A stretch of DNA of 64,000 nt from a virus (lineage: Duplodnaviria > Heunggongvirae > Uroviricota > Caudoviricetes). The stretch lies in IMG/VR virus record IMGVR_UViG_3300025326_000020; one strand, 5' to 3'. This document shows positions 2,148 to 64,000 of the stretch, in pieces. The first letter of the stretch is position 1; each line of letters opens with the position of its first letter. The position numbers were made by a program, and so were the translations under genes. The notes under the pieces are model-generated. The model worked only from the letters and a program-made list of their open reading frames with translations. It did not search any database and was not told the origin of the DNA.

Positions 2148-2170
2148 TTTTTGAAGGGAGGGAAAGGTAA

Positions 2171-3151: not shown

Positions 3152-3170
3152 TTGAAAGGGAGAAGCAATT

Positions 3171-3500
3171 ATGCCAAAGAAGCTCTTTGCAGTAACTAAC
3201 ATTAAAGTCGGAAATGATGCTGGAGAATTCTTCGTTGCAGGTACTGAGATTGATGTCGCAAAGTTTTCTCGTGAGACTCTATTAGAGTTGCACGAAGCTG
3301 GAGCAGTAGAAGTTCGTACAGTTGATGCGGAACCAGAAGCAGCACCACATGAGGATTTTGAGGCTGCTGTTGGTACTACTGAGACAGTAACCGCTACTAC
3401 TGGCGTTAATGTTACTACACCAGTAGTTCCTGCGGCAACCGTTGCAGCGCCTGCTACTCCTGCCAAGTCGACAGAAACGTCAAAGCCTGCTGATAAGTAG
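3171..3500 (+). CDS. hypothetical head protein with Ala/Pro/Thr-rich C-terminus
   Basis: ORF with RBS GGGAGAAG; low-complexity tail. Confidence 0.5.
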   Translation: MPKKLFAVTNIKVGNDAGEFFVAGTEIDVAKFSRETLLELHEAGAVEVRTVDAEPEAAPHEDFEAAVGTTETVTATTGVNVTTPVVPAATVAAPATPAKSTETSKPADK

Positions 3501-21909: not shown

Positions 21910-22180
21910 TCTCTTCCTCGGTCCATGGTACTACATTCACCTTGTGATAGGTTACTAGACAATTAACCAACCAAGTATGAATGGTCTCATTTGGGCAAGT
22001 AGCTATTAATTCACGTCTACCCATCCAATCTTCGGTATAGATTTCTAAACCCTCAACTACTAGTTGCCGTATTGGCGTCATGAACATTTCCTCTCCTATA
22101 TTATAATAATCGGGTCTAGACTGAAGCTTAATAAAGTACTCATTACAGCTCCGACCATCTAGAACCAGTAGAAACATCAA
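21899..22180 (-). CDS. hypothetical protein
   Basis: ORF. Confidence 0.4.
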   Translation of the reverse strand: MMFLLVLDGRSCNEYFIKLQSRPDYYNIGEEMFMTPIRQLVVEGLEIYTEDWMGRRELIATCPNETIHTWLVNCLVTYHKVNVVPWTEEENAQ

Positions 22181-24464
22181 CTACGAATGGAACAAAATCT
22201 GTGAATATTAAACCAGCCGCAACCATTTCTTGCCGTGCAATCTCAATAACTTCTTCTTGATTGGCTCTATTGGTTTCGAAGATAAGAGCATCATGAATTG
22301 TTAGCCGGGTGGTAGCAAGGCTGTGTAGTCGCGGTTGCAGTTTAACAAGAGCGGAGACGCAGATATCACTAGCGATTGATTGTGGTAAAAAGCTGAGGGC
22401 TTCGTTGATAACTTCGGTTCGATTTTGGTCTGTAATAAGCCAGAAGGATCTTTTACGACCAAATGGAGTTGTAAGGTCTTGTCCGTCGAGTACTCTATGC
22501 TTGACAGCAGCTTGCCATGAGATGACGCTCGAAATGCGAGCGTTAAATTCCTGCATAAGAGTTCTAGTCTCTTCAAGCGTAATCTTTGAACCCTGCTGCT
22601 GTAGTTCCAAGGCAATTGCGGCCACTCCTCTACCATAAGCGTTACCATAGAAAATGGATTTCATACTAACACGATTCTCTTTAACCCATTGCCCGGCACC
22701 GTAGATGTCGTTACATAGTTCATCAAAGATATCGCGCTCTGGGTCTCGGAAGATGTTAGCTAAATACTCGTCGTGCGCCAGCGTTGTGATAACGCGACCT
22801 TCCGCTTGCTTGTAATCCAGTTGGATAAGTACATTATCTTCATGTTCAACGGTAAACTGATGCTTAATTCTCTTGTCCCGAACGATGTTTTGCATATTAG
22901 GATTCTTCGACGCAAGGCGACCAGAGGTAGTTCCATGTAGAGTATATGTCGTATAGACTTTCCCTTTGTGAAGTCTTTTTTGAAAGCCCTTGACGTAGGT
23001 ACCATTTAATTTAGTACGACGTCTATGAAGTAAAAGCTGATGGATGAATGTTTTGACTGTGCCATCAGGAATCCTAGCACTAAGAGTTTCAATAACATCG
23101 GCCTGGGTTGTTTTGAGATGTATACCCTGTTCGGTAAACCATCGTAAAATCTGCATGGGCGAACGAGGGTTGAGATCTCTACCAGTAGTTAGAGAAATCT
23201 CAGTCTCTAGTTTATCAAGTTCATCTTGAAGTAGTTGTTGTAATTCTAGACTATAATCAAGATCAAAGCTGATGCCTGCCATTTCCAAATTAACGATTGC
23301 GTTAGCTGCATTAACCAGGAATGCGTGCTGTTGGTGTTCACGTGCATTCATTCTCTTGTTGAACAAATCCCACAGGGTCCGAGTTACGTGCACGTCTTCG
23401 GCATTATATAAATACAATGCAGAACGTGGAGCGGTAGCATAGTTCTTGTGATCTTTCAATAATTTCTTAAATGCTTGCTTCCATGGTGGAGTACCAAGTA
23501 CTTCAATGCCCAACTTCTCTAGGGCATGCAAGCCTGGACGCTCATCCTGAGCATAAGATTGCAGCATGGTATCACCGGCTGCTCTTATGGCACCCATCAA
23601 TGGGAACAGTCCAGCGAGATCGGACTTAATATTATGTCCGACAACTTCCTTGGCAGCAAGTACTTGACCTAATGCTTTTATAACCGAGGCAAATTGTAAA
23701 GCATTATATCCAATGACAATGACCTTGCCAACAGCGTAGGATATACCTATACAAAGTAAGTCCTGTTGATCTGAGTGTTCGTACTCTTCGTCCTTATCGA
23801 ATCCAGTTTCGATGTCGATAACCAATGGACCATCGACTAACCACAAACGTCCGATAGCCTGTAGAGCATTGTCTTCACTATCGACTACTACATATTTTGC
23901 CGGCACCCAGGCGGAAACGTCGTACCTATTTCCGCGAAGCTTGCCAACGTCAGAAACGAACGATGGAAATGCATCCGGCGCGCGAAGACAGTAGGCAGGG
24001 TGCCAGGTTCCAACTACACTAACTTCAGAATTCTCAATGTACGGTTTGGGTGGTCCTATACGTAAGGACGAGATTTTCTTTTTCGGGTCGATTAGCACCG
24101 AGGCTGCGGTACCACCCACGGCTAAAATCTTCTCCACGCCGCTCTCAGCCAGCTCTGCGTCAAGCCTGGGCTTGCAGGCCACGATGGCTGCCTTAGGTGG
24201 ATCATCGTTATTTGCTGGTCTACATAAGCAAATGTTAGTTACCATCACATCTGCCCGACTGTAGCCATGGTGTGTAAGAACCTGGTCCAGCAGTCTACCA
24301 GATGGACCAGTGAACGGTATACCTTTAGCAGCTTCGTACGCGCCAGGTGCTTCACCACATACTGCTAGCTTCGCTCTTGGCTGTGGGTTCTGCGTAGGCA
24401 CGAACGGGGCTTTCTCGAATGGACAAGATTCACAGTTTGCCAATGGGGCTTTAGGTAATCCCAT
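22143..24464 (-). CDS. DNA polymerase I (family A) with N-terminal family-4 UDG-like domain and 3'-5' exonuclease
   Basis: N-terminal GEAPG...GIPFTGPSGRLL (UDG family 4 motifs); DIETG exo motif; DYKQAEGRV, FYGNAYG and IHDALIFE polymerase motifs. Confidence 0.8.
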   Translation of the reverse strand: MGLPKAPLANCESCPFEKAPFVPTQNPQPRAKLAVCGEAPGAYEAAKGIPFTGPSGRLLDQVLTHHGYSRADVMVTNICLCRPANNDDPPKAAIVACKPRLDAELAESGVEKILAVGGTAASVLIDPKKKISSLRIGPPKPYIENSEVSVVGTWHPAYCLRAPDAFPSFVSDVGKLRGNRYDVSAWVPAKYVVVDSEDNALQAIGRLWLVDGPLVIDIETGFDKDEEYEHSDQQDLLCIGISYAVGKVIVIGYNALQFASVIKALGQVLAAKEVVGHNIKSDLAGLFPLMGAIRAAGDTMLQSYAQDERPGLHALEKLGIEVLGTPPWKQAFKKLLKDHKNYATAPRSALYLYNAEDVHVTRTLWDLFNKRMNAREHQQHAFLVNAANAIVNLEMAGISFDLDYSLELQQLLQDELDKLETEISLTTGRDLNPRSPMQILRWFTEQGIHLKTTQADVIETLSARIPDGTVKTFIHQLLLHRRRTKLNGTYVKGFQKRLHKGKVYTTYTLHGTTSGRLASKNPNMQNIVRDKRIKHQFTVEHEDNVLIQLDYKQAEGRVITTLAHDEYLANIFRDPERDIFDELCNDIYGAGQWVKENRVSMKSIFYGNAYGRGVAAIALELQQQGSKITLEETRTLMQEFNARISSVISWQAAVKHRVLDGQDLTTPFGRKRSFWLITDQNRTEVINEALSFLPQSIASDICVSALVKLQPRLHSLATTRLTIHDALIFETNRANQEEVIEIARQEMVAAGLIFTDFVPFVVDVSTGSRWSEL

Positions 24465-36226: not shown

Positions 36227-36527
36227 GACGTGTTTCGCCGCCTTTTAGTGTTTGCTCCAGTAGCCACTGATTATAGCTGTTAACAGCTTCGTCCGACCGT
36301 TCTGGTAGTGTTGGGAAGTTCTTTGGTCTACTGGTTACAGGTGGAGGAATGCTGCCATCTGCGTTTACTTGTACAACCCAAGTGGTAGCATTCCAACTGC
36401 ATCGATTATTTTCACACATGATGGTTCGAATAGAACTACCACGTGGACCTTTTACTGTACCAACTTCCTTACCAGGAAGTTCACATCTGGGGCAGCGTCT
36501 AGCTTCCTCAAAGGTAGTATCTGCCAC
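36219..36527 (-). CDS. zinc-ribbon protein
   Basis: CPRCE...CENNRCSW. Confidence 0.4.
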   Translation of the reverse strand: MADTTFEEARRCPRCELPGKEVGTVKGPRGSSIRTIMCENNRCSWNATTWVVQVNADGSIPPPVTSRPKNFPTLPERSDEAVNSYNQWLLEQTLKGGETRRG

Positions 36528-39806: not shown

Positions 39807-40286
39807 TTAAAACCATGAGTAGTACGACCAACGGTCGTCATAGTGGATCAGTGTTGGTTCTATACCATTCTTAATTTCATGGCACCACATAAGCATTCGA
39901 CCAACCCTACCGTTACCGTCACGGAATGGATGAATGCGCTCGAATGATATGTGTGCCACTCTTGGACTAAGCTCTTGGCAATCCTCAATCCAATCCTTCA
40001 TTAGTTGTGGTACATATAGTGGGTTTGGACATGTGCGTCCACCAACTTCTACCCAACAATCGCGCCATTTACCAGGATCTTTCATCAGACTGCGCATAAC
40101 ATTCCAATGTAAATTCTTGATAGAAGTTTCAGTAACATCAAGATTTAACAATTCTTCAAACGCTTCCATTGAAGCTTGGTCTTGCGTTTTGTGATTTACA
40201 CCTTCAATAAGGTTTGATTGTCTAATATGTTCCATTGTAATTTCAGTCATTGTCATCCCAATCGAATCCATCGTCCGGGTCATCAT
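39807..40286 (-). CDS. Fic-domain protein (putative AMPylating/adenylyltransferase toxin-like)
   Basis: canonical Fic motif HPFRDGNGRVGR. Confidence 0.7.
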   Translation of the reverse strand: MMTRTMDSIGMTMTEITMEHIRQSNLIEGVNHKTQDQASMEAFEELLNLDVTETSIKNLHWNVMRSLMKDPGKWRDCWVEVGGRTCPNPLYVPQLMKDWIEDCQELSPRVAHISFERIHPFRDGNGRVGRMLMWCHEIKNGIEPTLIHYDDRWSYYSWF

Positions 40287-43161: not shown

Positions 43162-43186
43162 CTTTATTCCTTTTTGTTGTCATGTG

Positions 43187-43261
43187 TACCGACGGTCAGA
43201 CTTGAACTGACAACCACTAACTTATAAGGTTAGCCGCACTGACCAATTGGCGTACGTCGGC
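43187..43261 (-). tRNA. tRNA-Ile (anticodon TAT)
   Basis: acceptor GCCGACG/CGTCGGT; anticodon arm CTAAC-CTTATAA-GTTAG; T-arm GTCAG-TTCAAGT-CTGAC. Confidence 0.6.
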
Positions 43262-44125: not shown

Positions 44126-44413
44126 TTACTTCTTGCAGGTCGGATCATTTGGCACTACGGCAATGGCGCCATAGGGACTGTCACTATGGAAGAGTACATA
44201 CAAACGATTGCCATGATCACACTTAGTGGCCGCATTCGAGAATCCATCAGGCATGACAATAATATCGGCTGATTCAGTATTTTCAGTACCTGATCGTGGA
44301 GCATCGTTAAACGGTTCCTTTGCTTTGGCCCCACAACTAGTGGACAAGGCAACCGCAAGAATCCCAACAATTAGGCAAGCAAATAATGGTAGCAAAGACT
44401 TAATTTTAGTCAC
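44126..44413 (-). CDS. lipoprotein
   Basis: signal peptide with lipobox LSTSC. Confidence 0.55.
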   Translation of the reverse strand: MTKIKSLLPLFACLIVGILAVALSTSCGAKAKEPFNDAPRSGTENTESADIIVMPDGFSNAATKCDHGNRLYVLFHSDSPYGAIAVVPNDPTCKK

Positions 44414-45429
44414 TACTTGCCTCCGGCATTAGCACTAACAAGTACACCGCCACCAGCGGCCAAACATAGACCCGGCGGAACTCCCATCTTAACCGATTCC
44501 TCTATGCACTTGTTTTGTACATAAAGAGGTGTCAAAACCTGGGCTAGAAGGTCAGAAACGGCCTTTTCAGCCAGGGCGTTTGTCTTCTTCTGTGCTAGTA
44601 CTCTAGCCTGCGCGATAACATCCTGGAACTGCTGAATGTTCTTTTCAGTTTGTGCATCATGGTGTACTAGTGGAATGGATACAGTCTTGACATCTACCAG
44701 ACCGTCAAATGCCGTTACCAGCTTGTTCTTAACATCTGTTTGTAGCTGGGTACCATCAAACCCAACCTGACCAGTCTGTAGATTTACCTGAGACAGGGGG
44801 TTATAGGTTGCAAAAACGTCGTTAAGCGCGTTCTGAATAACTGTTTCATACAGATTGTTCTTAACATTATTGAAATCACCCTTGTAGTCAAGGAACAACT
44901 TAGGTGCACCAGTCTCAGTAACCTGTAGCTGGATCCTATTCTCTACACATGCAGTAGCAAGTGAGCCAATACGTACGGTAGTACAACCTTCCTTCCAATT
45001 ACCAAGATGGTTGATTGTGACTACAGACGCATCGAAGTCCTCAACACTCTGCCAAGGCCAAACGAAGTGCAAACCGCTACCTGTGGTGTCTCCAGTAGGA
45101 CGGTTGAACGTGCTAACAATACCAACATTCCGTACTGGCACAGTGTATGCACTAGCAAAGAACATTAATATAGCAGCTAACGAAGCTAGTGCAATTGTTA
45201 CTACCTTAGAGGAATTATGTTCAGCAGCAGCAGCAGATTCCATATCCTTCTTTGATGGGCGATCAACATAAGCTCGATAGTCGCTACTTGCGGTATCTGC
45301 TGCCACAGCCTTATCGTATTCACTTTTTGCCTCAATGAAATCTTTCTTTGCTGATTTCTTCCACAAAAAAGCAAGAACAGCAAGAACAGCAACAGTGATG
45401 CCTAGTACAAATTCCCAGCTCAATTTCAT
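44413..45429 (-). CDS. membrane-anchored SPFH/band-7 domain protein
   Basis: N-terminal transmembrane helix; VRNVGIVSTFNRP...GLHFVWPW resembles the SPFH core. Confidence 0.5.
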   Translation of the reverse strand: MKLSWEFVLGITVAVLAVLAFLWKKSAKKDFIEAKSEYDKAVAADTASSDYRAYVDRPSKKDMESAAAAEHNSSKVVTIALASLAAILMFFASAYTVPVRNVGIVSTFNRPTGDTTGSGLHFVWPWQSVEDFDASVVTINHLGNWKEGCTTVRIGSLATACVENRIQLQVTETGAPKLFLDYKGDFNNVKNNLYETVIQNALNDVFATYNPLSQVNLQTGQVGFDGTQLQTDVKNKLVTAFDGLVDVKTVSIPLVHHDAQTEKNIQQFQDVIAQARVLAQKKTNALAEKAVSDLLAQVLTPLYVQNKCIEESVKMGVPPGLCLAAGGGVLVSANAGGK

Positions 45430-49159: not shown

Positions 49160-49235
49160 CCTCCTTGATTCAGTAGCAAGAATCGAACTTGCACATTGAC
49201 GCCGAGTAACCAGCCGCCTCTTCCATTTGGGCTAT
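49160..49235 (-). ncRNA. tRNA-like element or pseudogene with no foldable anticodon arm
   Basis: perfect acceptor TTCAGTA/TACTGAA and T-arm GCAAG-TTCGATT-CTTGC; 74 nt; central region fails to form a 5-bp/7-nt anticodon arm. Confidence 0.4.
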
Positions 49236-49368
49236 ACTGAACTTAGTAAGTTAAGGTTACTGCTAGCGACCTCCACAGCATACGTACGATACTGACGGAA
49301 CCCATTCGCCTGACCCGTATAGTCCTACTGCCATCGTGCCCGTCGACACTCCCTCACCTTAACTTACG

Positions 49369-52631: not shown

Positions 52632-52712
52632 GTGGGTCGGAAGGATTCGAACCTTCATCACCGGCATTGCTGCCCGCTCTACCATTTGAGCTACTAACCC
52701 TCGAACAGCGCA
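52632..52712 (-). ncRNA. tRNA-like element: canonical D-arm and T-arm, GNRA tetraloop hairpin (GGCA-GCAA-TGCC) in place of the anticodon arm, mismatched acceptor; 3' side ends in the CGACCCAC repeat
   Basis: D-arm GCTCAAATGGTAGAGC; T-arm GAAGG-TTCGAAT-CCTTC; no anticodon loop; 5'/3' acceptor strands not complementary. Confidence 0.45.
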
Positions 52713-53381: not shown

Positions 53382-53411
53382 AATTTCCAAAGTTTCTACT
53401 ATTTTACGAAG

Positions 53412-53484
53412 TGCTCTCAGAGGGATTCGAACCCTCACTTATCAGGACTTAAATCTGATGCCTCTGCCGTTGGGCTATGAGAGC
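53412..53484 (-). tRNA. class-I tRNA with leucine-type anticodon TAA (identity uncertain)
   Basis: perfect acceptor GCTCTCA/TGAGAGC; anticodon arm TCAGA-TTTAAGT-CCTGA (one A.C mismatch); T-arm GAGGG-TTCGAAT-CCCTC; discriminator A. Confidence 0.55.
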
Positions 53485-54221: not shown

Positions 54222-54363
54222 TGCCTCGATCGCTGGACTTGAACCAACAACCTCCAACTTAGCATCCCAGATCACTGTGGCCACAGCTCCCCTTTGTCTA
54301 AAACATGTGTGTACACACATGTTTTAGTTTTGTCGGTGCTCTATCCAATTGAGCTAGATCGAG
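54222..54363 (-). ncRNA. candidate Y RNA (YrlA-like tRNA mimic): tRNA scaffold with ~75-nt insertion replacing the anticodon arm
   Basis: perfect 7-bp acceptor CTCGATC/GATCGAG; canonical D-arm TAGCTCAATTGGATAGAGC; T-arm GTTGG-TTCAAGT-CCAGC; insertion contains a 14-bp perfect hairpin CTAAAACATGTGTG/CACACATGTTTTAG and the 12-nt palindrome CTGTGGCCACAG; ~290 nt 3' of the Ro60 orthologue on the same strand. Confidence 0.5.
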
Positions 54364-54434
54364 TAGTGGCTCTCCTTTTTCTCACCAGTGGCGAGAGCCG
54401 TTCCACTAACCGGAATCAGTGCAGTCGCTGAACA

Positions 54435-54653
54435 CTAACCCGGGAGACTAGTTGTTATAGTACGTGAATACAATTCATCCAGCCTTGTATCAATAGGACG
54501 CTTGAAATAAAAACGAACACTACCAATGTGGGTTGCGAGTGGATGAGCTGATACCAATTCCCAACCCTGTAGACCTAAAGAATCTAAGATCTCTTGCTGG
54601 TTATCAGGGTGACGAGCAACTTCGGTTTTGTATTCCCACAACACGTGAATCAT
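54435..54653 (-). CDS. small DUF4177-like protein
   Basis: LGLQGWELVS motif; overlaps the rsr stop. Confidence 0.4.
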   Translation of the reverse strand: MIHVLWEYKTEVARHPDNQQEILDSLGLQGWELVSAHPLATHIGSVRFYFKRPIDTRLDELYSRTITTSLPG

Positions 54654-56281
54654 ATGTTACCAGCCGAGAATTGTGATACCAGTGCTGGTAGATTAGCGTC
54701 GCCACCAACTACGTCTAACATTCCACGATCGCTAGGATCTGCAATCGTAAAGTTGGTAGCAGATGCAGCCGCAACAATCAGCTTAGCATCAATACCTGTC
54801 TTCTGTCGGTACTGCTTTATTGCCTGGAATGGATGTACGTCACCAAACCAAGTCTCATTGTCAGTGTATATCATAAAGGTATCGACTGCAATGTTGTGCT
54901 TGGCAGCGTAAAGCATCGGCTGTGCACAATCCGTACGACCAAACGACATACTGTTAGTAATTCGCAGAACATCATCTAGACGCATTCCAGGAGAAATACC
55001 TAGATCCTTCATTACATCTGAGAAACCAAAGGCTAGATAGAATGGCTCAGTCTTAGCAACTGAAAGGACCATTGCCGCACCAAGTTCAGCAGCAGTCAGA
55101 TCTAGTCCTGATGCAGCCTGCTTCATTGAACCAGAAACGTCAAGACCAATGAAGAATCTCTTGTTCGATGGCTCAACATAACTAAAGGACTTGTAGAATG
55201 CATCGTTCAATGCATCCACAATTACTGGTGAAGTTGTCCAGTCCTTAGGCTTATAAGCTGCTGGACCACCGAAGCCCATAGGGTATTTATATCCACCCTG
55301 TGTCTCACGAGCAATTTGACCCTTAGTATGCACCATTAGTGCAAGCAAGAACTGAATAGGGTGTAGTCTGGTCTTCTGAATCATTGTCTCGTTAGTGAGC
55401 GCGGTTGCAATCTCACGAGCGAACACCATATCGTTGAACATACCCAATCTTGCAAAGCGAGTAATGTTACGAACAAGTGCCTGACCAGTGAGCTGTCCAT
55501 TGCGGTAAAGCTGATGCCAGACTCTCGGTTCCTTATGGTACTGAGTTGGCACAACTTCCCATGGTAGACCAGGAACAGCTTCTAGTACATTCAAAAGTTC
55601 TTCAACATTTGGTGCTGCCTGTGCAATCTTAAAACCTGCAACTAGTTGGTGTTCACCACTATCAAAGCCAGTCTTACCAAGGATGAACTCACCAATACCT
55701 GGTACAAAACTGCCCTTAACGTGTGATAGTCTAAACATATCACGATGAGTCCAACCGTCGCGCTGGCGATACTTAACCGCCTGGTAGGCTAGCTGGTCTG
55801 GCGTCTTGTGGGTGTACCAGTCAGCTACCGCACGGCGCTTGGTCTTGCCCCAACCACCACCACCGTAATAAGTTCCTAGGTACTTTGCGAACTCATACAG
55901 CATAGTAGATGTACGGCACACACGCTGCACCAAGCTAGATAGGTCACGCTTCTTACCATATTTACCAAGTGCCGCCACTACAAAGACAGCGTACTTGTTA
56001 CGGAAAGCACGACCAGATTCTGAAACTTCCAGAACTGTGTCAATAACTAGCTGCTCATCACGATCAATTAGATCAATTAGGAAGTTCACGTTTTCACGTG
56101 TAAGAGGCTTCTCATCCTGGTAGTAGGTACCTTTCTCAGTACCAACAATTAGGAATCTTTCAAGTCTAACCTTGTCTGATACAGCGAAGACAAACCCACC
56201 AGCATTGTTCTTAACCTGATCTAGTCGAGCCTGCTCACGCTGTGTTGATGCAGTAAGGCTGCGAGAAAATACGTCACTCAT
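54650..56281 (-). CDS. rsr: Ro60/Rsr orthologue (TROVE domain + C-terminal vWA domain)
   Basis: N-terminal VRLERFLIVGTEKGTYY aligns with the human Ro60 RLHRFLCFGSEGGTYY region; C-terminal vWA with MIDAS FFIGLDVSGSM; 543 aa, typical Ro60 size. Confidence 0.8.
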   Translation of the reverse strand: MSDVFSRSLTASTQREQARLDQVKNNAGGFVFAVSDKVRLERFLIVGTEKGTYYQDEKPLTRENVNFLIDLIDRDEQLVIDTVLEVSESGRAFRNKYAVFVVAALGKYGKKRDLSSLVQRVCRTSTMLYEFAKYLGTYYGGGGWGKTKRRAVADWYTHKTPDQLAYQAVKYRQRDGWTHRDMFRLSHVKGSFVPGIGEFILGKTGFDSGEHQLVAGFKIAQAAPNVEELLNVLEAVPGLPWEVVPTQYHKEPRVWHQLYRNGQLTGQALVRNITRFARLGMFNDMVFAREIATALTNETMIQKTRLHPIQFLLALMVHTKGQIARETQGGYKYPMGFGGPAAYKPKDWTTSPVIVDALNDAFYKSFSYVEPSNKRFFIGLDVSGSMKQAASGLDLTAAELGAAMVLSVAKTEPFYLAFGFSDVMKDLGISPGMRLDDVLRITNSMSFGRTDCAQPMLYAAKHNIAVDTFMIYTDNETWFGDVHPFQAIKQYRQKTGIDAKLIVAAASATNFTIADPSDRGMLDVVGGDANLPALVSQFSAGNI

Positions 56282-56329
56282 TCTCCGACCCCTTCCGGGA
56301 TATTTTAGTGTTAGTTTTGTTTGGTTAAG

Positions 56330-56422
56330 TGGAGGTATAAGGATTCGAACCTTATCTACACAGTTAGCTAAACTGCGCTCATTAGGTGGCTATCCTAATG
56401 GCCCGTGACCCCCAAGGTACGT
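56330..56422 (-). ncRNA. tRNA-like structured element 5' of rsr (T-arm plus two hairpins; acceptor not closable)
   Basis: T-arm TAAGG-TTCGAAT-CCTTA; hairpins CATTAGG-ATAGCCA-CCTAATG and CAGTT-TAGCT-AACTG. Confidence 0.35.
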
Positions 56423-56454
56423 TGGATATAATTTAAATATAGGCGTGCGCAGGA

Positions 56455-56560
56455 TCATGGGTTCCGATTTGAACGGAAGTTTCACATCTACGATGTGTGT
56501 CTTGCCACATTAGACGACCCTTGATAACCTATACTCGTCCGACCCAACGTAATGTTAGTA
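56455..56560 (-). ncRNA. tRNA-like member of the GTGGGTCGGA repeat family
   Basis: 5' GTTGGGTCGGA-CGAG-TATAGGTTATC; 3' T-arm-like TCCG-TTCAAAT-CGGA followed by ACCCA, which pairs with the 5' TGGGT. Confidence 0.35.
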
Positions 56561-56684: not shown

Positions 56685-57959
56685 TCAGAAGTTGAACGGA
56701 GTGGTTGTTCCGTTGGCGTTGAGGTAGGCATTTCCTGATTCCTCGTATCCTACGTTGCTTGGATACCATGAGTGCACTGGTCCTGAGTTACCACATCTAG
56801 CATGCCACAGCTTACCAAATCTGTTATCGAAATACCTTACATTCTTAGCGGTTGGACCACCAGTGTATGTGCAGTATTCGCCAGCAGCATTAAGCAAATT
56901 GTACCGGACTAGCACACCATCCATTGCACCTTCATCATACAGTGACAATGCTGACGAGCAGCCCTGTGGGCCTGGATCAGCAAATACCGCACGATAGCAG
57001 TTTAGGTTGTTGTGCCAAATCACAATGTTCTTGCCATAGTTCATCCCAACAGCCGCTTGGTGAGCACCTGTAGTGTAAACCATTCGCGTCACGTATGAGT
57101 CCGTGATACTTACGTTGTTTCCACCACCAATACCTGTTGAGGTATCATGTACGTAGCAACGTAGACAAGAGTAGTTATCACCATCAGCCACCGGCGCCGC
57201 ATTTGTAACGGCACTAGTGATCTCAACATCTATCAGCTTCAAACCACGATAGTTCTTGCTTGCTGACCAATGTGGTGAGATTGCACCAACAATAAGCGAA
57301 TTACGAATGGTGATGTTTCCTGCTACATCGTGCACCCGAAGAAATCCTTGACTACCTTGGAAAATGCAACCATCAAAAATCAGGTTGCCCTTTTCAAAGT
57401 GACCATCAAAGTTATCTGGGTTACTTGCCGGTGTGGCATCCTGCTCACTACAACGCTTAAGATCTGTCTTCGTCAATCCCGTATGCACATATCCAGTGCA
57501 ATTCTCATCCGGGAACGCTGGCCATGGAGCACAGAATAACACAGGACCAGGACCCGGAGGATCTGTTGGCGTAGGAGTTGGGGTCGTCGTTACTGTGGGT
57601 GTTGGTGTTGCTGTCGGGCTTGGTGTAATGGTAGGACCCACAGTAGGACTGGGTGTCGGAGTAGCAGTAACCGTAGGAGTTGGGGATGGTGTAGGTGTTA
57701 CCTCAGGCAGAGTAAATGCACTGACACAACGAACTAACCATTCTCGATCCGCTGCTGATAATGGTGCAGGATTATCAAGACGGTCCTGACAATCCTGACG
57801 GGCACTATCAGCAGTCGCTGCACTACTAGCACTAGCTCCGAACGACAGCGTGTTTGCGGTCGCTCCGACTACTAGAAACGCAGCGGCTACTGTTGTTACT
57901 AATTTTGCTTTTGTCAGCACTTGCTTGCCTCCTAATGTTGGCATCCCGTGACATGGCAA
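56685..57959 (-). CDS. secreted protein: signal peptide, Pro/Thr-rich linker, right-handed beta-helix (pectate-lyase-like) domain
   Basis: N-terminal hydrophobic signal; TPTPSPTPTVTATPTPSPTVGPTITPSPTATPTPTV linker; repetitive NxxIxN beta-helix-like C-terminal domain. Confidence 0.55.
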   Translation of the reverse strand: MPCHGMPTLGGKQVLTKAKLVTTVAAAFLVVGATANTLSFGASASSAATADSARQDCQDRLDNPAPLSAADREWLVRCVSAFTLPEVTPTPSPTPTVTATPTPSPTVGPTITPSPTATPTPTVTTTPTPTPTDPPGPGPVLFCAPWPAFPDENCTGYVHTGLTKTDLKRCSEQDATPASNPDNFDGHFEKGNLIFDGCIFQGSQGFLRVHDVAGNITIRNSLIVGAISPHWSASKNYRGLKLIDVEITSAVTNAAPVADGDNYSCLRCYVHDTSTGIGGGNNVSITDSYVTRMVYTTGAHQAAVGMNYGKNIVIWHNNLNCYRAVFADPGPQGCSSALSLYDEGAMDGVLVRYNLLNAAGEYCTYTGGPTAKNVRYFDNRFGKLWHARCGNSGPVHSWYPSNVGYEESGNAYLNANGTTTPFNF

Positions 57960-57969
57960 AATTGTTTAC

Positions 57970-58054
57970 GCGGTGAAGGTAGGATTTGAACCCACGGTGC
58001 TTTTACACACTTCCGCTTTCAAGGCGGATGCCTTAAGCCTCTCGGCCACTTCAC
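57970..58054 (-). tRNA. tRNA-Ser (anticodon TGA), type II
   Basis: perfect acceptor GGTGAAG/CTTCACC; anticodon arm TCCGC-CTTGAAA-GCGGA; long variable arm GTGTGTAAAAGCAC; T-loop TTCAAAT; 85 nt. Confidence 0.7.
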
Positions 58055-58105
58055 CAAACTTTATATATGTTTCCATGTTCTTCTAGCTATAAGTTCTCTT
58101 ATTAA

Positions 58106-58453
58106 TTACCAATCATGATCATCGGTTATCGGTGATAGATCATCAGGATCAGCACCAATGAGTTTACAAAGCTTAGTCCAAATTTTGAGCAAACAAATTT
58201 CACAATAATCACGACGGAACTGCTGGTGTACACATTGATCAGGATTGAGATAGATTGATAACTCAGACAGTTCAACATCACCGTCAGGTATTACTAAACC
58301 ACAACCATCGCATGTATAGTGTACAATCTGTATTGTCTGACTTACTTCTCTAGTTTCAACCCTTGTACTGTACCGTCTAGACATGATGCTCCTAGAGTGC
58401 TTTGGATATGTTATCGCAATCGTAAATGAGGCCCCACTTATACAACTATCCAC
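58106..58453 (-). CDS. hypothetical protein
   Basis: ORF. Confidence 0.4.
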   Translation of the reverse strand: MDSCISGASFTIAITYPKHSRSIMSRRYSTRVETREVSQTIQIVHYTCDGCGLVIPDGDVELSELSIYLNPDQCVHQQFRRDYCEICLLKIWTKLCKLIGADPDDLSPITDDHDW

Positions 58454-58578
58454 CGTGGTTAACGCTATCTTCCGTAGCTCCCACCAAATGATGCATAATC
58501 TAGTGTTAGAGTATGATCTCAGGGCTCTCTCGCGATGTAAGTTAAACGATTACTGCCGACCCAAAGCGAGTCTAGAAG

Positions 58579-59370
58579 CTAGCAGCTACGAATGGCAATA
58601 CCTCGTGCTCTAAGCCAAGGTGCTGGATTAATCTGATTCCATAGTCCCTTGTGCACTTCAAAGTGCAGATGTGGTCCGGTCGCATGACCAGTTGCACCAA
58701 CATAGCCTATGATTTGACCAGCCTTAACCCTTTGACCGTTGCTGACAATTTCACGGCTCATGTGTGCATAGTGAGTATATACGTTGCCACCATGATTAAC
58801 AAACACCGAGATACCATAGCCGGAATAAATCCAACCCGACTTATATATTGTACCGGCGGATACCGCACGTATCGGCGTACCTGTGGGCTTTGCCAGGTCT
58901 ACTCCCTGGTGCATACTACCCCATCGCATTCCGAAACATGAGGTAACGGCCGCACCCTTTAGTGGGTTGACCCATTTTGCTGAGCTAATCGTTGGTTTTG
59001 GCTTGGTTGCCGGTGCGACTGTCTTAACGGTAACACCTAATTTGGGAATCCACAACCGTTGGCCGTCCAAAATTATATTCGGATCGGCAACTCTACTCTT
59101 GTTTGCCTTGTAAATGGTGGGCCATAAACTAGCCTTACCATAGTAATGCTTAGCCATTCCAGACAAGGTACCATTAATAGACGGATAAGCTGTAACATTA
59201 GCCCAGAAGCCATCGGCTGATTGTGCTGCACTTATCTTTTCTACTGTGAATTCAACATTCGTTGGTTGTGCTGTGATCGATGCTGCGGTTGCGCTAGTTT
59301 CTGTTAGTAGGAGTGTGCCAATGGCGATTAAACCTGCAATAGTAATTGCGGCTAATCTGGTTCTCTTCAT
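58579..59370 (-). CDS. secreted LysM + M23 (LytM-type) peptidoglycan endopeptidase
   Basis: signal peptide; LysM-like HYYGKASLWPTIYKANKSRVADPNIILDGQRLWIP; M23 motifs HQGVDL and GPHLHFEV. Confidence 0.7.
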   Translation of the reverse strand: MKRTRLAAITIAGLIAIGTLLLTETSATAASITAQPTNVEFTVEKISAAQSADGFWANVTAYPSINGTLSGMAKHYYGKASLWPTIYKANKSRVADPNIILDGQRLWIPKLGVTVKTVAPATKPKPTISSAKWVNPLKGAAVTSCFGMRWGSMHQGVDLAKPTGTPIRAVSAGTIYKSGWIYSGYGISVFVNHGGNVYTHYAHMSREIVSNGQRVKAGQIIGYVGATGHATGPHLHFEVHKGLWNQINPAPWLRARGIAIRSC

Positions 59371-60167: not shown

Positions 60168-60225
60168 AACTCTCCAATTGATTATAGCGTATGGATATGT
60201 TTATTGATATCGGATATCTTATGTC

Positions 60226-60251
60226 GTTAACCGATTTCATCCGACCCATAC
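60226..60251 (+). repeat. GTTAACCGA-N6-TCCGACCCA repeat copy
   Basis: matches 63892..63916. Confidence 0.5.
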
Positions 60252-60280
60252 GTGAGATACCATTCCCGTGGTTGATCTCG

Positions 60281-61967: not shown

Positions 61968-62149
61968 AAGTCCAAGGTAACACTGGCTCCAATGTTACCT
62001 TGGAGTAAAGTCCAGAGTAGTACAAGGGACGAGAAGTGTGGATGGGCAACCCGCCCAATACTACTCTGGAGTAAAGCCTAGCTAGTCCCAGAGGACAGCT
62101 AGGAGCTATGGAGTGTGGATATGTTATGAGATCGGGTTTGGACTAGGCG

Positions 62150-62223
62150 CCATGCCTTTTCGTCAGGAATCGAACCTGAATCGTCTGATTAATAGTCAGA
62201 TAACCAATACTCTTCCGACCCAC
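62150..62223 (-). ncRNA. tRNA-like member of the GTGGGTCGGA family (anticodon-like loop CTATTAA; no closable acceptor)
   Basis: 5' GTGGGTCGGA-AGAG-TATTGGTTATC; hairpin TCTGA-CTATTAA-TCAGA; T-arm TCAGG-TTCGATT-CCTGA. Confidence 0.4.
62199..62223 (+). repeat. GATAACCAATA-N4-TCCGACCCAC repeat copy
   Basis: matches 63577..63601 and 56523..56548. Confidence 0.5.
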
Positions 62224-62359
62224 ACTCTGAGTCACTAAATTGATAATGATGCATGACATTGGCTTATTAACGCATACTCCTCACATACTGCAAGGTATCT
62301 GTGTCCTGGGTCATGACTCCAGTTAGGCACCCCGGGCACCTATCATATACCAACATCAT

Positions 62360-62445
62360 CCGCAAAGGTGGAGAGATTCGAACTCTCATAATCGGTTTTG
62401 GAGACCAATCAGCACAACCTACGCTCACCGATAAGGTGGCCATCC
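62360..62445 (-). ncRNA. tRNA-like structured element (T-arm GAGAG-TTCGAAT-CTCTC plus long-range 8-bp helix TAATCGGT/ACCGATTA)
   Basis: no canonical cloverleaf. Confidence 0.3.
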
Positions 62446-62915: not shown

Positions 62916-63050
62916 GTACGCCCACCAACATTCTACAGCGTAAAGCTTGACAGGCTTCATATGCTTATGAATGGTAGGTAAAGGCAGGTCTCCATAAACC
63001 CTACGTTGCTCACTGCCTCTTTGCCCGTCACGGCATACCAACAGTGCATG

Positions 63051-63137
63051 TACCATCGGTAGGACTCGAACCTACATACCGTACAGCCGTCGCTGGCCTG
63101 CTAATACGCAGGTGCTCTGCCATTGAGCTACGATGGT
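63051..63137 (-). ncRNA. type-II tRNA-like gene with aberrant 6/8-nt anticodon loop (GTATTA)
   Basis: perfect acceptor ACCATCG/CGATGGT; D-arm GCTCAATGGCAGAGC; stem CCTGC/GCAGG; 21-nt variable region; T-arm GTAGG-TTCGAGT-CCTAC; 87 nt. Confidence 0.4.
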
Positions 63138-63267: not shown

Positions 63268-63394
63268 ATAGGCAGTGCAACATTCACAGTGCGGGATTGT
63301 TGCCCCGACTAGGTTCGTCAACCTCCCCTAGTTTATACGTTGCACTGGCTAGAAATCTTCCCTGCCAGGGAAGTTTGGTAGTTCGGATATATGT

Positions 63395-63530
63395 TTGTAA
63401 TCGAAAATGCCTTTCGGCAATGACAGTCGCTCTTCCACTGAGCTACAAGGAAGGATTCGAACCTCCGACATACTGTTTATCCGTTAATCGATTAGCTCCG
63501 ACCCGAACCAAAGCTAGATCCTGTGGATAT
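63395..63530 (-). ncRNA. composite tRNA-like region: D-arm GCTCAGTGGAAGAGC with GNRA hairpin TGCC-GAAA-GGCA, adjacent T-arm GGAGG-TTCGAAT-CCTTC
   Basis: tRNA modules present but not assembled into one canonical cloverleaf. Confidence 0.3.
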
Positions 63531-63576
63531 GTAACCTTCTATCAGAATTATTGTTGCCGCAAATTTTGTCGCGGTA

Positions 63577-63601
63577 AGATAACCAATAGAAGTCCGACCC
63601 A
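63577..63601 (+). repeat. GATAACCAATA-N4-TCCGACCCAC repeat copy
   Basis: matches 62199..62223. Confidence 0.5.
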
Positions 63602-63891
63602 CAGGGTACTTAACGATGTAATGACAGGCGACATCTACTGTTCGTTTAAGACTACCTTCTAAGGGAGAGGAATCCCTGTCATTACATCTTGTGGGTGGGA
63701 TTGGCTATTTCCCAACGATAATCGTCCAGACATGCCGGTGCTGGCCCACGTGGTTGTACTGTAAAAGCAATGGCGATGACCAATGCTTGTTAAATTTGTT
63801 CATAAGTGTTGTGGATATAAAGTAGACATCGGGTTATTGTGCTGACGTATCCGATAAATCAGATACGTTCAACATCATATCATCCCTATGA

Positions 63892-63916
63892 GTTAACCGA
63901 CGTCAATCCGACCCAC
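63892..63916 (+). repeat. GTTAACCGA-N6-TCCGACCCAC repeat copy
   Basis: matches 60226..60251. Confidence 0.5.
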
Positions 63917-64000
63917 AACTAATAAGTCCAGTGAACATGTTTGAGAATTGGAAATTTTTTACACCGACTACGTCGATGTTGTCACTCCCATGTGACTATT

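What the first reader, a model, noticed from the sequence alone, without database searches (positions are those of the whole stretch)
54650..56281. Ro60/Rsr (TROVE+vWA) orthologue inside a phage tRNA island
The 543-aa - strand protein carries the Ro60 signature region (RLERFLIVGTEKGTYY, against human RLHRFLCFGSEGGTYY) and a C-terminal vWA/MIDAS (DVSGSM). Ro60 proteins bind Y RNAs and act in structured-RNA quality control. Here the gene sits in a phage genome between tRNA arrays and tRNA-like RNAs. This suggests a virus-encoded RNA surveillance/processing module tied to the phage's own tRNA repertoire.
Basis: partly seen in the sequence, partly recalled or inferred. Interest (0 to 1): 0.8.

Follow-up and report, generated by a model that had tools for sequence, protein, structure and literature searches.

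The report
Phage Ro60 gene with Y RNAs
The gene is a genuine phage-borne Ro60/Rsr RNA-binding protein, a kind already annotated in hundreds of actinobacteriophages. New here are at least seven unannotated Y-RNA-like partner genes among the tRNAs and a copy of their protein-binding motif on the gene's own start site.

Summary
ORF 54650-56281 (-) encodes a full-length Ro60/Rsr orthologue: TROVE 5e-35, vWA_Ro60 2e-58, Rsr 2NVO 2e-91, Xenopus Ro60 1.5e-89, and a predicted fold with TM 0.82 to 1YVP. The MIDAS motif and K170/R174/H187 are intact. The window is a phage, and 27 tRNA genes share the gene's strand.

It is not new as a kind. 355 phage records carry a homologue, mostly annotated "Ro-like RNA binding protein". 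Streptomyces phages also place it inside a tRNA island. Phage Ro60 with Y RNAs was described in 2003, 2014 and 2025.

I add two things.
- Seven Y-RNA-like genes lie upstream on the same strand, and an eighth lies just past the window end. They share a covarying two-stem module carrying GGGUCGGA, close to the Ro60-contacted GGUCCGA. One of them is YrlA-like, with T and D arms.
- The rsr leader holds a hairpin-permuted copy of that module, ending 1 nt before the AUG. It is conserved in relatives, which suggests autoregulation.

The most likely mechanism is a Ro60-Y RNA particle that adapts a host exoribonuclease. A specific role in surveillance of the phage's own tRNAs is unproven.

The parts
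54650..56281 (-). rsr: Ro60/Rsr orthologue, 543 aa (TROVE HEAT-repeat ring plus C-terminal vWA with MIDAS D381-S383-S385...T450...D474)
56282..56306 (-). rsr 5' leader: hairpin AUCCC-GGAA-GGGGU flanked by ..AUAU and CGGAGA, directly before the AUG. It is a hairpin-permuted copy of the Y-RNA P0/internal-loop module and covers the ribosome-binding region.
56419..56552 (-). Y-RNA-like gene Yg. Its 3' end lies 138 nt upstream of the rsr AUG. The interior has a T-arm-like hairpin UUCCG-UUCAAAU-CGGAA.
   Evidence: R2 30.3 bits
58399..58569 (-). Y-RNA-like gene Yf (GGGUCGGC variant of the motif; 112-nt interior)
   Evidence: (R2 26.7 bits, E 6e-4)
60188..60254 (-). Y-RNA-like gene Ye, a minimal 67-nt form (P0, loop, P1, small loop)
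   Evidence: R2 67.1 bits
62112..62228 (-). Y-RNA-like gene Yd. The interior has a T-arm-like hairpin UCAGG-UUCGAUU-CCUGA.
   Evidence: partial tRNA hit 62162-62210; R2 38 bits
63380..63511 (-). Y-RNA-like gene Yc, the YrlA-type member: T arm GGAGGUUCGAAUCCUUCC, then D arm GUAGCUCAGUGGAAGAGC. It has no acceptor-like hairpin and carries a small GNRA hairpin GCC-GAAA-GGC.
   Evidence: Rfam YrlA RF02553, 32.2 bits; R1 100 bits; R2 33.5 bits
63520..63607 (-). Y-RNA-like gene Yb, 88 nt, with a simple hairpin interior
   Evidence: R2 69.9 bits
63808..63921 (-). Y-RNA-like gene Ya, 114 nt. A further copy lies beyond the window end, seen in the near-identical contig L006 at 1719-1786.
   Evidence: R2 45 bits

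Best explanation
The gene encodes a phage Ro60/Rsr ring protein that most likely works as a ribonucleoprotein with phage-encoded Y RNAs.

Shown:
- The protein is a full-length Ro60 orthologue with intact MIDAS and conserved K170/R174/H187.
- Seven small RNA genes on the same strand, 0.14-7.6 kb upstream of rsr and interspersed with the tRNA genes, share one module. It consists of a terminal stem P0 (9-10 bp, ending GGGU/AUCC), an internal loop (5' CGGA, 3' ACAU/UUAU), a second stem P1, then GGUUAWC, followed by a variable interior.
- Both stems covary.
- The 5' strand GGGUCGGA is one base from the GGUCCGA contacted by Xenopus Ro60 and one base from the bacterial GNCGAA(N)G motif.

Inferred:
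- Ro60 binds this module on its outer surface.
- The variable interiors (a tRNA-like T+D domain in one, T-arm-like hairpins in two, plain hairpins in others) act as adaptors for different partners.
- The best precedent is a host 3'-5' exoribonuclease such as PNPase, so the particle would redirect or restrain RNA decay and quality control in the infected actinobacterial cell.
- The Y RNA genes sit among tRNA genes because they share strand, transcription and probably processing, and because YrlA-type RNAs are tRNA-derived.
- The rsr mRNA leader carries a hairpin-permuted copy of the same module, ending 1 nt before the AUG. Free Ro60, not titrated by Y RNA, probably binds its own mRNA and represses translation.
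For: Protein identity. Residues K170, Y171, R172, R174, H187, D381, S383, S385, T450 and D474 are invariant in 23 homologues of 54-61% identity and align with the same-numbered Xenopus residues. H187S abolishes Y RNA binding according to PMC11277228.

Y RNA family:
- The regex GGTCGGA-N3-15-RTTAWC gives 7 hits, all on the - strand, against 0.05 expected.
- Seven sequences tested (six from the window, one from L006) fold by MFE into P0 + loop + P1; the seventh window copy, Yf, does so.
- On eight minimal members, 96.6% of cells are paired and 12 of 16 pairs change on both sides; slid controls give 32-48%.
- On 95 distinct model hits, 94.9% are paired and 16 of 16 pairs covary; slid controls give 28-49%.
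- All 106 hits of model R2 in 86 sources are on the Ro60 strand.
- In loci with about 10 kb on both sides there are 37 hits upstream and 0 downstream.
- Rfam YrlA hits occur at the syntenic place in three relatives.
- Positive control: R1 and R2 hit the roughly 400 nt upstream of gp220 of mycobacteriophage ET08, a phage in which Chen et al. 2014 reported a YrlA-like RNA. The same architecture is visible there (PMC4201824).

Mechanistic precedent: D. radiodurans and S. Typhimurium form Rsr-Y RNA-PNPase complexes (PMC4201824). Thermus phage phiLo Ro60 with Yrl1/2 binds host PNPase and lowers its activity by about 70-76% in vitro (PMC12135203).

Leader:
- The 5' flank variant (AUAUCC versus AUACUC) matches each genome's own Y-RNA 3' motif.
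- The motif starts 5-35 nt upstream of the Ro60 start in 27 of 83 loci, against about 2.2 expected.
- GGGTCGG occurs 8 times on the - strand: the 7 Y RNAs and this leader.
Against: - No expression or binding data exist; the phage is known only from metagenome contigs.
- The YrlA-type member scores 32 bits against Rfam YrlA (gathering score 69) and lies 7.1 kb from rsr, outside the 4 kb used by Chen et al.
- The motif is CGGA, not CGAA.
- No PNPase, RtcB or other RNase was found among the window ORFs scanned, so the effector would have to be a host protein or lie outside the window.
- The direction of the effect (activating or restraining decay) is unknown.
- For the leader, in many distant loci the motif reads CGAAAGGAG, which overlaps an ordinary Shine-Dalgarno context.
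- Several of the 27 positive loci are near-duplicates, so the binomial P is overstated.
- The 3' partners of P0 in alignment A5 were chosen by complementarity, and alignment A6 is fitted to the model, so both lean towards the structure.
Confidence: 0.6

Rival explanations
1. One reading: the phage Ro60 is a surveillance or processing factor dedicated to the phage's own tRNAs. It would bind misfolded or aberrant transcripts of the tRNA island through its central cavity.
For: The gene is embedded in the tRNA island, and this placement is conserved in relatives and in Streptomyces phages. Several aberrant tRNA-like genes flank it: 54224-54363 with a 66-73-nt insertion in the anticodon loop, a D-armless cloverleaf at 56330-56414, and an 88-nt tRNA-like RNA with a 6-nt anticodon loop at 63050-63137. 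Ro60 is known to bind misfolded small RNAs (PMC11277228).
Against: This rests on co-location only. In mycobacteriophage ET08 only two tRNA genes lie within 9 kb of the Ro gene, yet three Y-like RNAs sit within about 400 nt upstream of it. From background knowledge, bacterial rsr loci are not tRNA-linked. Shared transcription and processing, plus the tRNA ancestry of YrlA, explain the placement without a functional tie.
Confidence: 0.2
2. Ro60 acts mainly without Y RNA, as in heat-stressed D. radiodurans 23S rRNA maturation. It would help exoribonucleases trim host or phage structured RNAs. The Y RNAs would be inhibitory gates that only buffer its activity.
For: Chen et al. describe Y-RNA-free Rsr in rRNA maturation, with Y RNA inhibiting it (PMC4201824). 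A large number of Y RNA copies (7-8) would fit a titrating or buffering role.
Against: The diverse, conserved interiors of the paralogues are hard to explain if they serve only as lids. Nothing here tests this reading directly.
Confidence: 0.15
3. The small RNAs work independently of Ro60, for example as tRNA-mimic decoys against host tRNA-targeting defences or as regulators. Their linkage to rsr would be incidental.
For: Three of the seven carry T-arm-like hairpins, and they lie among tRNA genes.
Against: The shared, covarying part is not the tRNA-like part but the P0/GGUCGGA/P1 module, which matches the Ro60-contacted motif (PMC4201824). Hits are strictly on the Ro60 strand and upstream of it across very diverse loci. 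Four of the seven have no tRNA-like feature.
Confidence: 0.05
4. Sub-claim rival: the motif in the rsr leader is only a ribosome-binding context plus a stabilising 5' hairpin, or a remnant of Y-RNA duplication. It would not be an autoregulatory operator.
For: In many distant loci the motif reads CGAAAGGAG, i.e. it overlaps a Shine-Dalgarno-like sequence. ET08 has no clear hairpin there.
Against: In the window and its three closest relatives the leader reproduces both loop strands of the Y module, and the variant matches that genome's Y RNAs. The motif is enriched about 12-fold over background.
Confidence: 0.35

Closest known systems
'Ro-like RNA binding protein' of actinobacteriophages (Streptomyces phages such as Moab, Comrade and Coruscant of Stanwilliamsviridae; Mycobacterium cluster C phages Bxz1/ET08 gp220; PHROG 850)
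   Same: Same two-domain protein, up to 51.6% identical over 99% of its length. In the Streptomyces phages it is also embedded in a large same-strand tRNA island. Y-like RNAs of the same modular type lie upstream.
   Different: There is no nucleotide similarity to any deposited phage. The DNA polymerase is at most 30% identical to any cultured phage, so this is a different lineage. The Y-like genes are more numerous (8 against 2-6) and are scattered over about 8 kb rather than clustered directly upstream.
Bacterial Rsr with YrlA/YrlB or Yrn1/Yrn2 (S. Typhimurium, M. smegmatis, D. radiodurans; RYPER complex with PNPase)
   Same: The protein is an orthologue (2NVO, 2e-91). One RNA has the YrlA order of T arm then D arm. 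There is a 5' motif resembling GNCGAA(N)G / GGUCCGA. More than one Y RNA is present per genome, and some carry only a T arm, like M. smegmatis YrlB (PMC4201824).
   Different: It is phage-borne. The motif is GUCGGA. The YrlA-type member lacks the acceptor-like hairpin and has an added GNRA hairpin. It scores below the Rfam gathering score. No rtcBA neighbours were found in the window ORFs scanned.
Thermus phage phiLo phiRo60 with Yrl1/Yrl2 (PDB 9KOP, 9L5Y)
   Same: A phage Ro60 with phage-encoded Y-like RNAs upstream of the gene. It is the only phage system with biochemistry: it binds host PNPase and attenuates it (PMC12135203).
   Different: The sequence and fold relation is remote (16-17% identity, TM 0.55). 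phiLo has two Yrls, and no tRNA-island context is mentioned in the passages read.
Metazoan Ro60 with Y RNAs (Xenopus 1YVP, human 9NEN)
   Same: Full-length fold (TM 0.82). K170/R174/H187 and MIDAS are conserved. The 5'-strand motif GGUCGGA compares with GGUCCGA. Several Y paralogues share a Ro-binding stem and differ in their variable modules.
   Different: Metazoan Y RNAs have no tRNA-like domain. The partners differ: bacterial-type exoribonucleases are expected here.

Membership tests
Ro60/Rsr (TROVE + vWA) | N-terminal TROVE HEAT-repeat domain | tested here: met
   PF05731 at 5.4e-35, 121.9 bits against a cut-off of 23. A helical repeat region is predicted at 36-320.
Ro60/Rsr (TROVE + vWA) | C-terminal Ro60-type vWA domain with MIDAS motif DxSxS...T...D | tested here: met
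   PF25045 at 2.2e-58 over profile positions 1-164 of 165. D381, S383, S385, T450 and D474 are present and invariant in 23 homologues. The motif definition is from PMC11277228.
Ro60/Rsr (TROVE + vWA) | End-to-end similarity to solved Ro60 structures, and the ring fold | tested here: met
   2NVO 2.2e-91 (residues 16-542), 1YVP 1.5e-89 and 9NEN 6.8e-82. Foldseek gives 1YVP_A TM 0.82/0.84 over 556 columns.
Ro60/Rsr (TROVE + vWA) | Conserved RNA-binding residues (Xenopus K170, R174, H187) | tested here: met
   The KYRQRDGWTHRDMFRLSH block aligns with the Xenopus KYKQRNGWSHKDLLRLSH block with identical numbering, and these residues are invariant in alignment A2. The role of H187 in Y RNA binding is from PMC11277228. 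The roles of K170 and R174 are recalled from Stein 2005 and Fuchs 2006, which could not be read.
Ro60/Rsr (TROVE + vWA) | Physical binding of Y RNA and of misfolded RNA | not testable with these tools
   Needs EMSA or RIP.
YrlA (Rfam RF02553), for the RNA at 63380-63511 | Reaches the Rfam gathering score (69 bits) | tested here: not met
   32.2 bits, E 9e-4 in 13 kb and 5e-5 in 0.7 kb. Syntenic relatives score 33.9-49.5 bits.
YrlA (Rfam RF02553), for the RNA at 63380-63511 | tRNA-like domain with a T arm followed by a D arm, enclosed by a stem formed from the 5' and 3' parts | tested here: met
   GGAGGUUCGAAUCCUUCC, then GUAGCUCAGUGGAAGAGC, enclosed by P2, P1 and P0. There are compensatory changes in relatives.
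YrlA (Rfam RF02553), for the RNA at 63380-63511 | GNCGAA(N0-1)G motif near the 5' end | tested here: inconclusive
   The 5' motif is GGGUCGGAG (GUCGGA: one base off GNCGAA and one base off the metazoan GGUCCGA). A literal GCCGAAAG occurs, but in a 3' GNRA hairpin.
YrlA (Rfam RF02553), for the RNA at 63380-63511 | Encoded within 4 kb of the Ro60 gene (criterion of Chen et al. 2014) | tested here: not met
   It is 7.1 kb upstream. Other family members lie closer: 138 nt, 2.1 kb and 3.9 kb.
Y RNA (functional class), for all seven RNAs | Terminal stem with a conserved Ro60-binding element plus a variable effector module, genetically linked to Ro60 | tested here: met
   The P0/loop/P1 module covaries. 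Strand and upstream linkage to Ro60 hold in 86 sources. The same architecture is seen upstream of ET08 gp220, in a phage for which a YrlA-like RNA was published.
Y RNA (functional class), for all seven RNAs | Expressed as stable small RNAs bound by Ro60 | not testable with these tools
   No transcriptome is available, and the promoter/terminator scan was at background level.
rsr-yrlBA-rtcBA RNA repair operon (Salmonella type) | RtcB ligase and RtcA cyclase genes adjacent to rsr | tested here: not met
   No such domains were found in 30 window ORFs scanned with Pfam or in the ten ORFs near rsr (rsr itself included) scanned with PHROGs. ORFs under 110 aa elsewhere in the window and sequence outside the window were not scanned.

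The most novel reading that the evidence does not exclude
The phage runs an expanded Ro60 system. Eight Y RNA paralogues share one Ro60-binding module, but their different interiors would let one protein be plugged into several host or phage partners. Ro60 synthesis would be set by competition between these Y RNAs and a hairpin-permuted Y-RNA mimic that overlies the rsr ribosome-binding site. The same leader mimic, seen in many Ro60 loci of phages and bacteria, would be a general and so far undescribed autoregulatory operator of Ro60 genes.
Probability: 0.35. Interest if true: 0.6.

Novelty: new member of a known kind. Interest (0 to 1): 0.42.

Why it matters
The gene itself adds one more, rather divergent, phage lineage to a known family. 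The value lies in what surrounds it.

First, the GenBank records inspected for cultured actinophages (Moab, Coruscant, ET08) annotate the Ro-like protein but none of the Y-like RNAs found here. A simple two-stem model finds two to eight per locus. These RNAs are therefore an overlooked and probably abundant class of phage non-coding RNA, sitting in the 'empty' gaps of tRNA islands.

Second, a Y-RNA look-alike directly on the start site of the Ro60 mRNA gives a concrete, cheap hypothesis for how Ro60 levels are matched to Y RNA levels. No paper in the searchable library addressed this. It can be tested in cultured Streptomyces phages such as Moab, whose rsr leader carries the motif.

Tried and rejected
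- Nucleotide search of 12 kb against deposited phages found no match. The scan of IMG/VR with peptide patterns also found no match. Relatives had to come from the protein database and a metagenome scan.
- I tested whether the tRNA-like RNA just downstream of rsr (54224-54363) is the Y RNA. It is not: it has the normal tRNA order, no GGUCGGA/P0 module and no R1 or R2 hit. ARAGORN in intron mode calls it 'tRNA-Ser(GCU) with a 66-nt intron at 32/33', but the body is class I, and intron mode gave many obvious false positives on the loci. It is left unexplained.
- The 30-nt palindrome inside it is unique in the window, so it is not a repeated mobile element.
- Rfam's own alignment of the YrlA hit placed the CGAA motif on UAAUCGA. 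Comparison with paralogues shows that the homologous motif is GGGUCGGA further 5'.
- RNAalifold's outer stem (GGUCGGA with UUCGAUU) was rejected in favour of P1, which has compensatory changes.
- A relaxed scan (CGGA/CGAA preceded by a strand with an 8-bp partner) does not discriminate from shuffled sequence (17 and 15 hits against 11-25), so only the full module counts.
- The regex hit at 36279-36298 has no P0 closure and no R2 hit, and was rejected as chance.
- The promoter/terminator scan was at background level.
- Single-sequence folding z-scores are weak (0.14, -1.8 to -2.5). The case rests on comparison, not on folding energy.
- Stein 2005 and three reviews by Wolin and colleagues are not in the library, and the Chen 2014 supplements are not held.
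- The 72-aa ORF coupled to the rsr stop has no family and no homologue in the other loci.
Full report
1. The observation

The ORF at 54650..56281 on the - strand (543 aa, ATG) is present as described. It contains RLERFLIVGTEKGTYY (residues 39-54) and DVSGSM (381-386).

- Pfam gives two domains far above threshold: TROVE PF05731 (5.4e-35) and vWA_Ro60 PF25045 (2.2e-58, profile positions 1-164 of 165).
- Against all PDB sequences the protein aligns end to end with D. radiodurans Rsr 2NVO (2.2e-91, residues 16-542), Xenopus Ro60 1YVP (1.5e-89) and human Ro60 9NEN (6.8e-82).
- An AlphaFold model built on 23 homologues (pLDDT 81.5, pTM 0.77; the low-confidence segments are the N-terminus and a 327-340 linker) matches 1YVP over the whole chain (TM 0.82/0.84, Foldseek E about 1e-33). 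It also matches Rsr and, more distantly, the Thermus phage phiLo Ro60 (TM 0.55, 16-17% identity).
- The stated refutation test ('no TROVE hit and no similarity outside vWA') is therefore clearly failed: the finding stands.
- The MIDAS residues D381, S383, S385, T450 and D474 are invariant in 23 homologues that are only 54-61% identical to the query. So is the block K170-Y171-R172-x-R174...H187. This block aligns with identical numbering to the Xenopus KYKQR...H187 block.
- H187S is reported to abolish Y RNA binding (PMC11277228). The roles of K170 and R174 are from my memory of Stein 2005 and Fuchs 2006, which I could not read.

2. Context

The window is a tailed phage.

- Structural genes: prohead protease-like, tail tube, tape measure.
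- Replication genes: a UDG-fused family A DNA polymerase, primase, SNF2 helicase, PD-(D/E)XK nuclease, ThyX.
- From 39 kb to the window end there is a same-strand island of 27 tRNA genes interspersed with small ORFs. The Ro60 gene sits inside it, between tRNA-Ser(UGA) at 57970-58055 and tRNA-Leu(UAA) at 53411-53484.
- The phage has no nucleotide match among 50,697 deposited phages, and its DNA polymerase is at most 30% identical to any of them.
- Contigs encoding a 99%-identical Ro60, and identical over the 230 nt compared downstream of rsr, occur in three public assemblies.
- Relatives whose Ro60 is 56-60% identical show the same tRNA order around the gene: Val-Met-[YrlA]-Arg(ACG)-Trp-Gly-Ser-Leu-...-Ser(UGA)-Ro60-Leu(UAA)-Glu-Ile.

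3. Is it new as a kind? No.

- tblastn finds a homologue in 355 phage records: Mycobacterium 212, Streptomyces 115, Gordonia 11, Microbacterium 10 and others. Most are annotated 'Ro-like RNA binding protein'. The best is 51.6% identical, in Streptomyces phage Moab.
- PHROG 850 'RNA-binding protein' matches at 7e-80.
- In Moab and Coruscant the gene also lies in a dense tRNA island.
- Chen et al. 2014 cite Pedulla 2003 for Ro60 in mycobacteriophages. They report YrlA-like RNAs near Ro60 in 254 bacterial species and 22 phages (PMC4201824).
- A 2025 paper solved a phage Ro60 and showed that it binds two phage Y-like RNAs and host PNPase (PMC12135203).

4. What else is there: a family of Y-RNA-like genes

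Rfam at a relaxed threshold gave one YrlA hit at 63395-63494 (-). It scores 32 bits against a gathering score of 69, but covers the full model, with the T arm GGAGGUUCGAAUCCUUCC followed by the D arm GUAGCUCAGUGGAAGAGC. The three relatives each have a YrlA hit at the syntenic place, 4.4-5.6 kb upstream of Ro60 (33.9-49.5 bits). A covariance model built from the four (R1) finds the same kind of RNA in some 40 other Ro60 loci, always on the Ro60 strand, including Moab (52 bits).

A direct-repeat scan then showed a 30-nt family that is the 5' end of this RNA. Following it up:

- The pattern GGTCGGA-N3-15-RTTAWC occurs 7 times in the window, all on the - strand, against 0.05 expected.
- Six of these hits, plus one variant (GGUCGGC) found later by a model, have the same build. 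The parts are a terminal stem P0 of 9-10 bp whose inner end is GGGU/AUCC, an internal loop with 5' CGGA(N) and 3' (A)ACAU or UUAU, a second stem P1 of 7-10 bp, then GGUUAWC, and a variable interior.
- Seven sequences tested fold into P0 + loop + P1 by plain MFE; Yf does so.
- The P0 sequences differ completely between copies but stay complementary: UUGUGGG/UCCACAA, CUGUGGG/UCCACAG, GUUCGGG/UCCGAAC, GUGUGGG/UCCACAC, GUAUGGG/UCCAUAC, CGUUGGG/UCCAACG, CUUUGGG/UCCAAAG.
- On eight minimal members from five genomes, 96.6% of cells are paired and 12 of 16 pairs change on both sides. Slid controls give 32-48%.
- A second model (R2) recovers all seven window copies (26.7-69.9 bits) and nothing else in the window.
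- Over 86 sources R2 gives 106 hits, every one on the Ro60 strand.
- In the 17 loci with about 10 kb on both sides of Ro60 there are 37 hits upstream and none downstream.
- On the 95 distinct hits, 94.9% of cells pair and all 16 pairs covary. Slid controls give 28-49%. This alignment is model-fitted and so leans towards the structure.

The window copies are at 63808-63921, 63520-63607, 63380-63511 (the YrlA-type one), 62112-62228, 60188-60254, 58399-58569 and 56419-56552. An eighth copy lies just beyond the window end (L006 1719-1786).

Copy numbers elsewhere are: L002 eight, L003 six, L004, L012 and L019 five each, Moab five to six, Coruscant two. ET08 has three.

As a positive control, the roughly 400 nt upstream of gp220 in ET08, a phage in which Chen et al. 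reported a YrlA-like RNA, contain three tandem RNAs of exactly this build: P0-GGCCGA(N)-P1-GGUUAYC...CAUGUCU-P0'.

None of these RNAs is annotated in the GenBank records I looked at.

5. Why these are Y RNAs

- Chen et al. state that the 5' motif GNCGAA(N0-1)G resembles the GGUCCGA contacted by Xenopus Ro60, and that Ro60 mainly touches that 5' strand.
- The window motif GGUCGGA differs by one base from each.
- The architecture (a Ro-binding stem made from the two ends, plus a variable effector module) and the tight genetic linkage to Ro60 are the defining traits of the class.
- Paralogues with a full tRNA-like domain, with only a T arm, or with a plain hairpin parallel YrlA and YrlB of M. smegmatis.
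- Formally, the YrlA-type member fails two criteria: the Rfam gathering score and the 4-kb rule. I therefore call it YrlA-like rather than a curated member.

6. A copy of the module on the rsr start site

The 25 nt before the AUG read AAAAUAUCCC-GGAA-GGGGUCGGAGA-AUG (56306-56279). The stem AUCCC/GGGGU is P0 closed by a tetraloop. Its flanks ..AUAU and CGGAG are the two strands of the Y-RNA internal loop.

The three closest relatives have the same arrangement:
- L002: CAUACUCC-UGGAGA-GGGGUCGGAAC
- L003: CAUACUCC-UUGAAA-GGGGUCGAAAAC
- L004: ACAUAUCC-CUUUGAAA-GGGGUCGAA

The 5' flank variant (AUAUCC or AUACUC) is the one used by that genome's own Y RNAs. More distant loci, Moab included, have GCCC-loop-GGGCCGAAAGG in the same place.

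The strict motif starts 5-35 nt upstream of the chosen start in 27 of 83 loci, against about 2.2 expected (binomial 4e-22). This P is overstated because some loci are near-duplicates. GGGTCGG occurs eight times on the - strand of the window: the seven Y RNAs and this leader.

The simplest reading is translational autoregulation by molecular mimicry, as in many RNA-binding proteins. I found no paper on this for Ro60 in the searchable library. One caveat applies: in distant loci CGAAAGGAG overlaps an ordinary Shine-Dalgarno context, and ET08 shows no clear hairpin.

7. Mechanism

Shown: the orthology, the intact functional residues, a linked covarying RNA family carrying a Ro60-type motif, and a mimic of that motif on the start site.

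Inferred, by analogy with RYPER in D. radiodurans and S. Typhimurium and with phiLo: the Y RNAs tether the ring to a host exoribonuclease, PNPase being the precedent. They would also gate its cavity, changing which structured RNAs are degraded or spared during infection.

No nuclease, RtcB or RtcA was found among the 30 window ORFs of at least 110 aa scanned with Pfam, or in the ten ORFs near rsr (rsr itself included) scanned with PHROGs. The partner would therefore have to be a host protein or be encoded elsewhere in the genome.

The direction of the effect is open. Shared transcription and processing, together with the tRNA ancestry of YrlA, explain the placement equally well. ET08 also keeps the Y RNAs next to Ro60 with only two tRNA genes within 9 kb.

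8. Verdict

The finding is correct and well described, but it is a new member of a known kind. The added observations are modestly novel and readily testable in cultured relatives: an eight-member, unannotated Y RNA family spread through the tRNA island, and a Y-RNA mimic on the rsr start site that recurs in many Ro60 loci. They raise the interest above that of a routine annotation.

Noticed in passing
window 54224-54363 (-), with a hairpin at 54368-54399 (-): A tRNA-like gene (Rfam tRNA 38.8 bits; good acceptor, D and T arms; discriminator G) has its 7-nt anticodon loop replaced by 73 nt. The insertion contains a perfect 30-nt palindrome, CTAAAACATGTGTGTACACACATGTTTTAG, which is unique in the window. 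ARAGORN intron mode reads it as 'tRNA-Ser(GCU) with a 66-nt intron at 32/33', but the body is class I. It is preceded by a hairpin GGCUCUC...GAGAGCC. This hairpin is conserved, with a compensatory change, in relative L003 (11727-11765), where an 88-nt tRNA-Leu(AAG)-like gene follows instead. Its function is unknown, and it has no Y-RNA module.
   Followed up: partly
window 56330-56414 (-): Between the last Y-like RNA and the rsr leader lies a cloverleaf-like fold: a 7-bp acceptor-like stem UGGGGGU/ACCUCCA, two hairpins, and a T arm UAAGGUUCGAAUCCUUA. It has no D arm and is not recognised by Rfam tRNA or ARAGORN (MFE -30.7 kcal/mol, z -2.0). Its 5' GGGGGU could alternatively pair with the leader's AUAUCCC.
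   Followed up: partly
window 63050-63137 (-): An 88-nt tRNA-like gene (Rfam tRNA 50.3 bits) has a 6-nt anticodon loop and a long variable arm. ARAGORN cannot assign an anticodon. It sits where the three relatives have tRNA-Trp(CCA), and no tRNA-Trp, Val or Met was found inside the window.
   Followed up: no
window 52633-52700 (-) and 62363-62421 (-): Two further weak tRNA-like hits (35.3 and 29.0 bits) were not called by ARAGORN. The first contains CCGACCC next to a T arm.
   Followed up: no
window 54435-54653 (-): A 72-aa ORF has a start codon that overlaps the rsr stop (ATGA), which suggests translational coupling. It has no Pfam or PHROG family and no homologue in any other fetched Ro60 locus except the near-identical contigs.
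   Followed up: partly
window 49167-49241 (-) and 43186-43261 (-): tRNA genes with unusual anticodons were called by ARAGORN: Ser(ACU), with A at position 34, and Ile(UAU).
   Followed up: no
window 22143-24464 (-): A family A DNA polymerase carries an N-terminal uracil-DNA-glycosylase-superfamily domain and a 3'-5' exonuclease domain in one 773-aa protein. It is at most 30% identical to any deposited phage polymerase, so the phage belongs to an uncultured lineage even though its Ro60 is closest to that of Streptomyces phages.
   Followed up: partly
window 39807-40286 (-), 44413-45429 (-), 58579-59370 (-), 56685-57959 (-): Protein genes scattered inside the tRNA/Y-RNA island include a Fic/DOC-domain protein, an SPFH/Band 7 protein, an M23 peptidase with a signal-like N-terminus, and a 424-aa protein with a long Pro/Thr-rich linker and no family.
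   Followed up: no
L001 (Streptomyces phage Moab MT114162) 1619-3290; L089 (Mycobacterium phage ET08 NC_013650) 8596-8945; L090 (Streptomyces phage Coruscant MT711976) 8024-8217: Cultured, deposited phages carry 2-6 Y-RNA-like loci upstream of their Ro-like gene. They lie in gaps between annotated features, and none is annotated in the records.
   Followed up: partly
window 61971-62004, 62011-62070, 63615-63688 (inverted repeats): Several other long, near-perfect hairpins (12-16-bp arms) lie in the intergenic stretches between the tRNA and Y-RNA genes. They may be further structured RNAs or processing sites.
   Followed up: no
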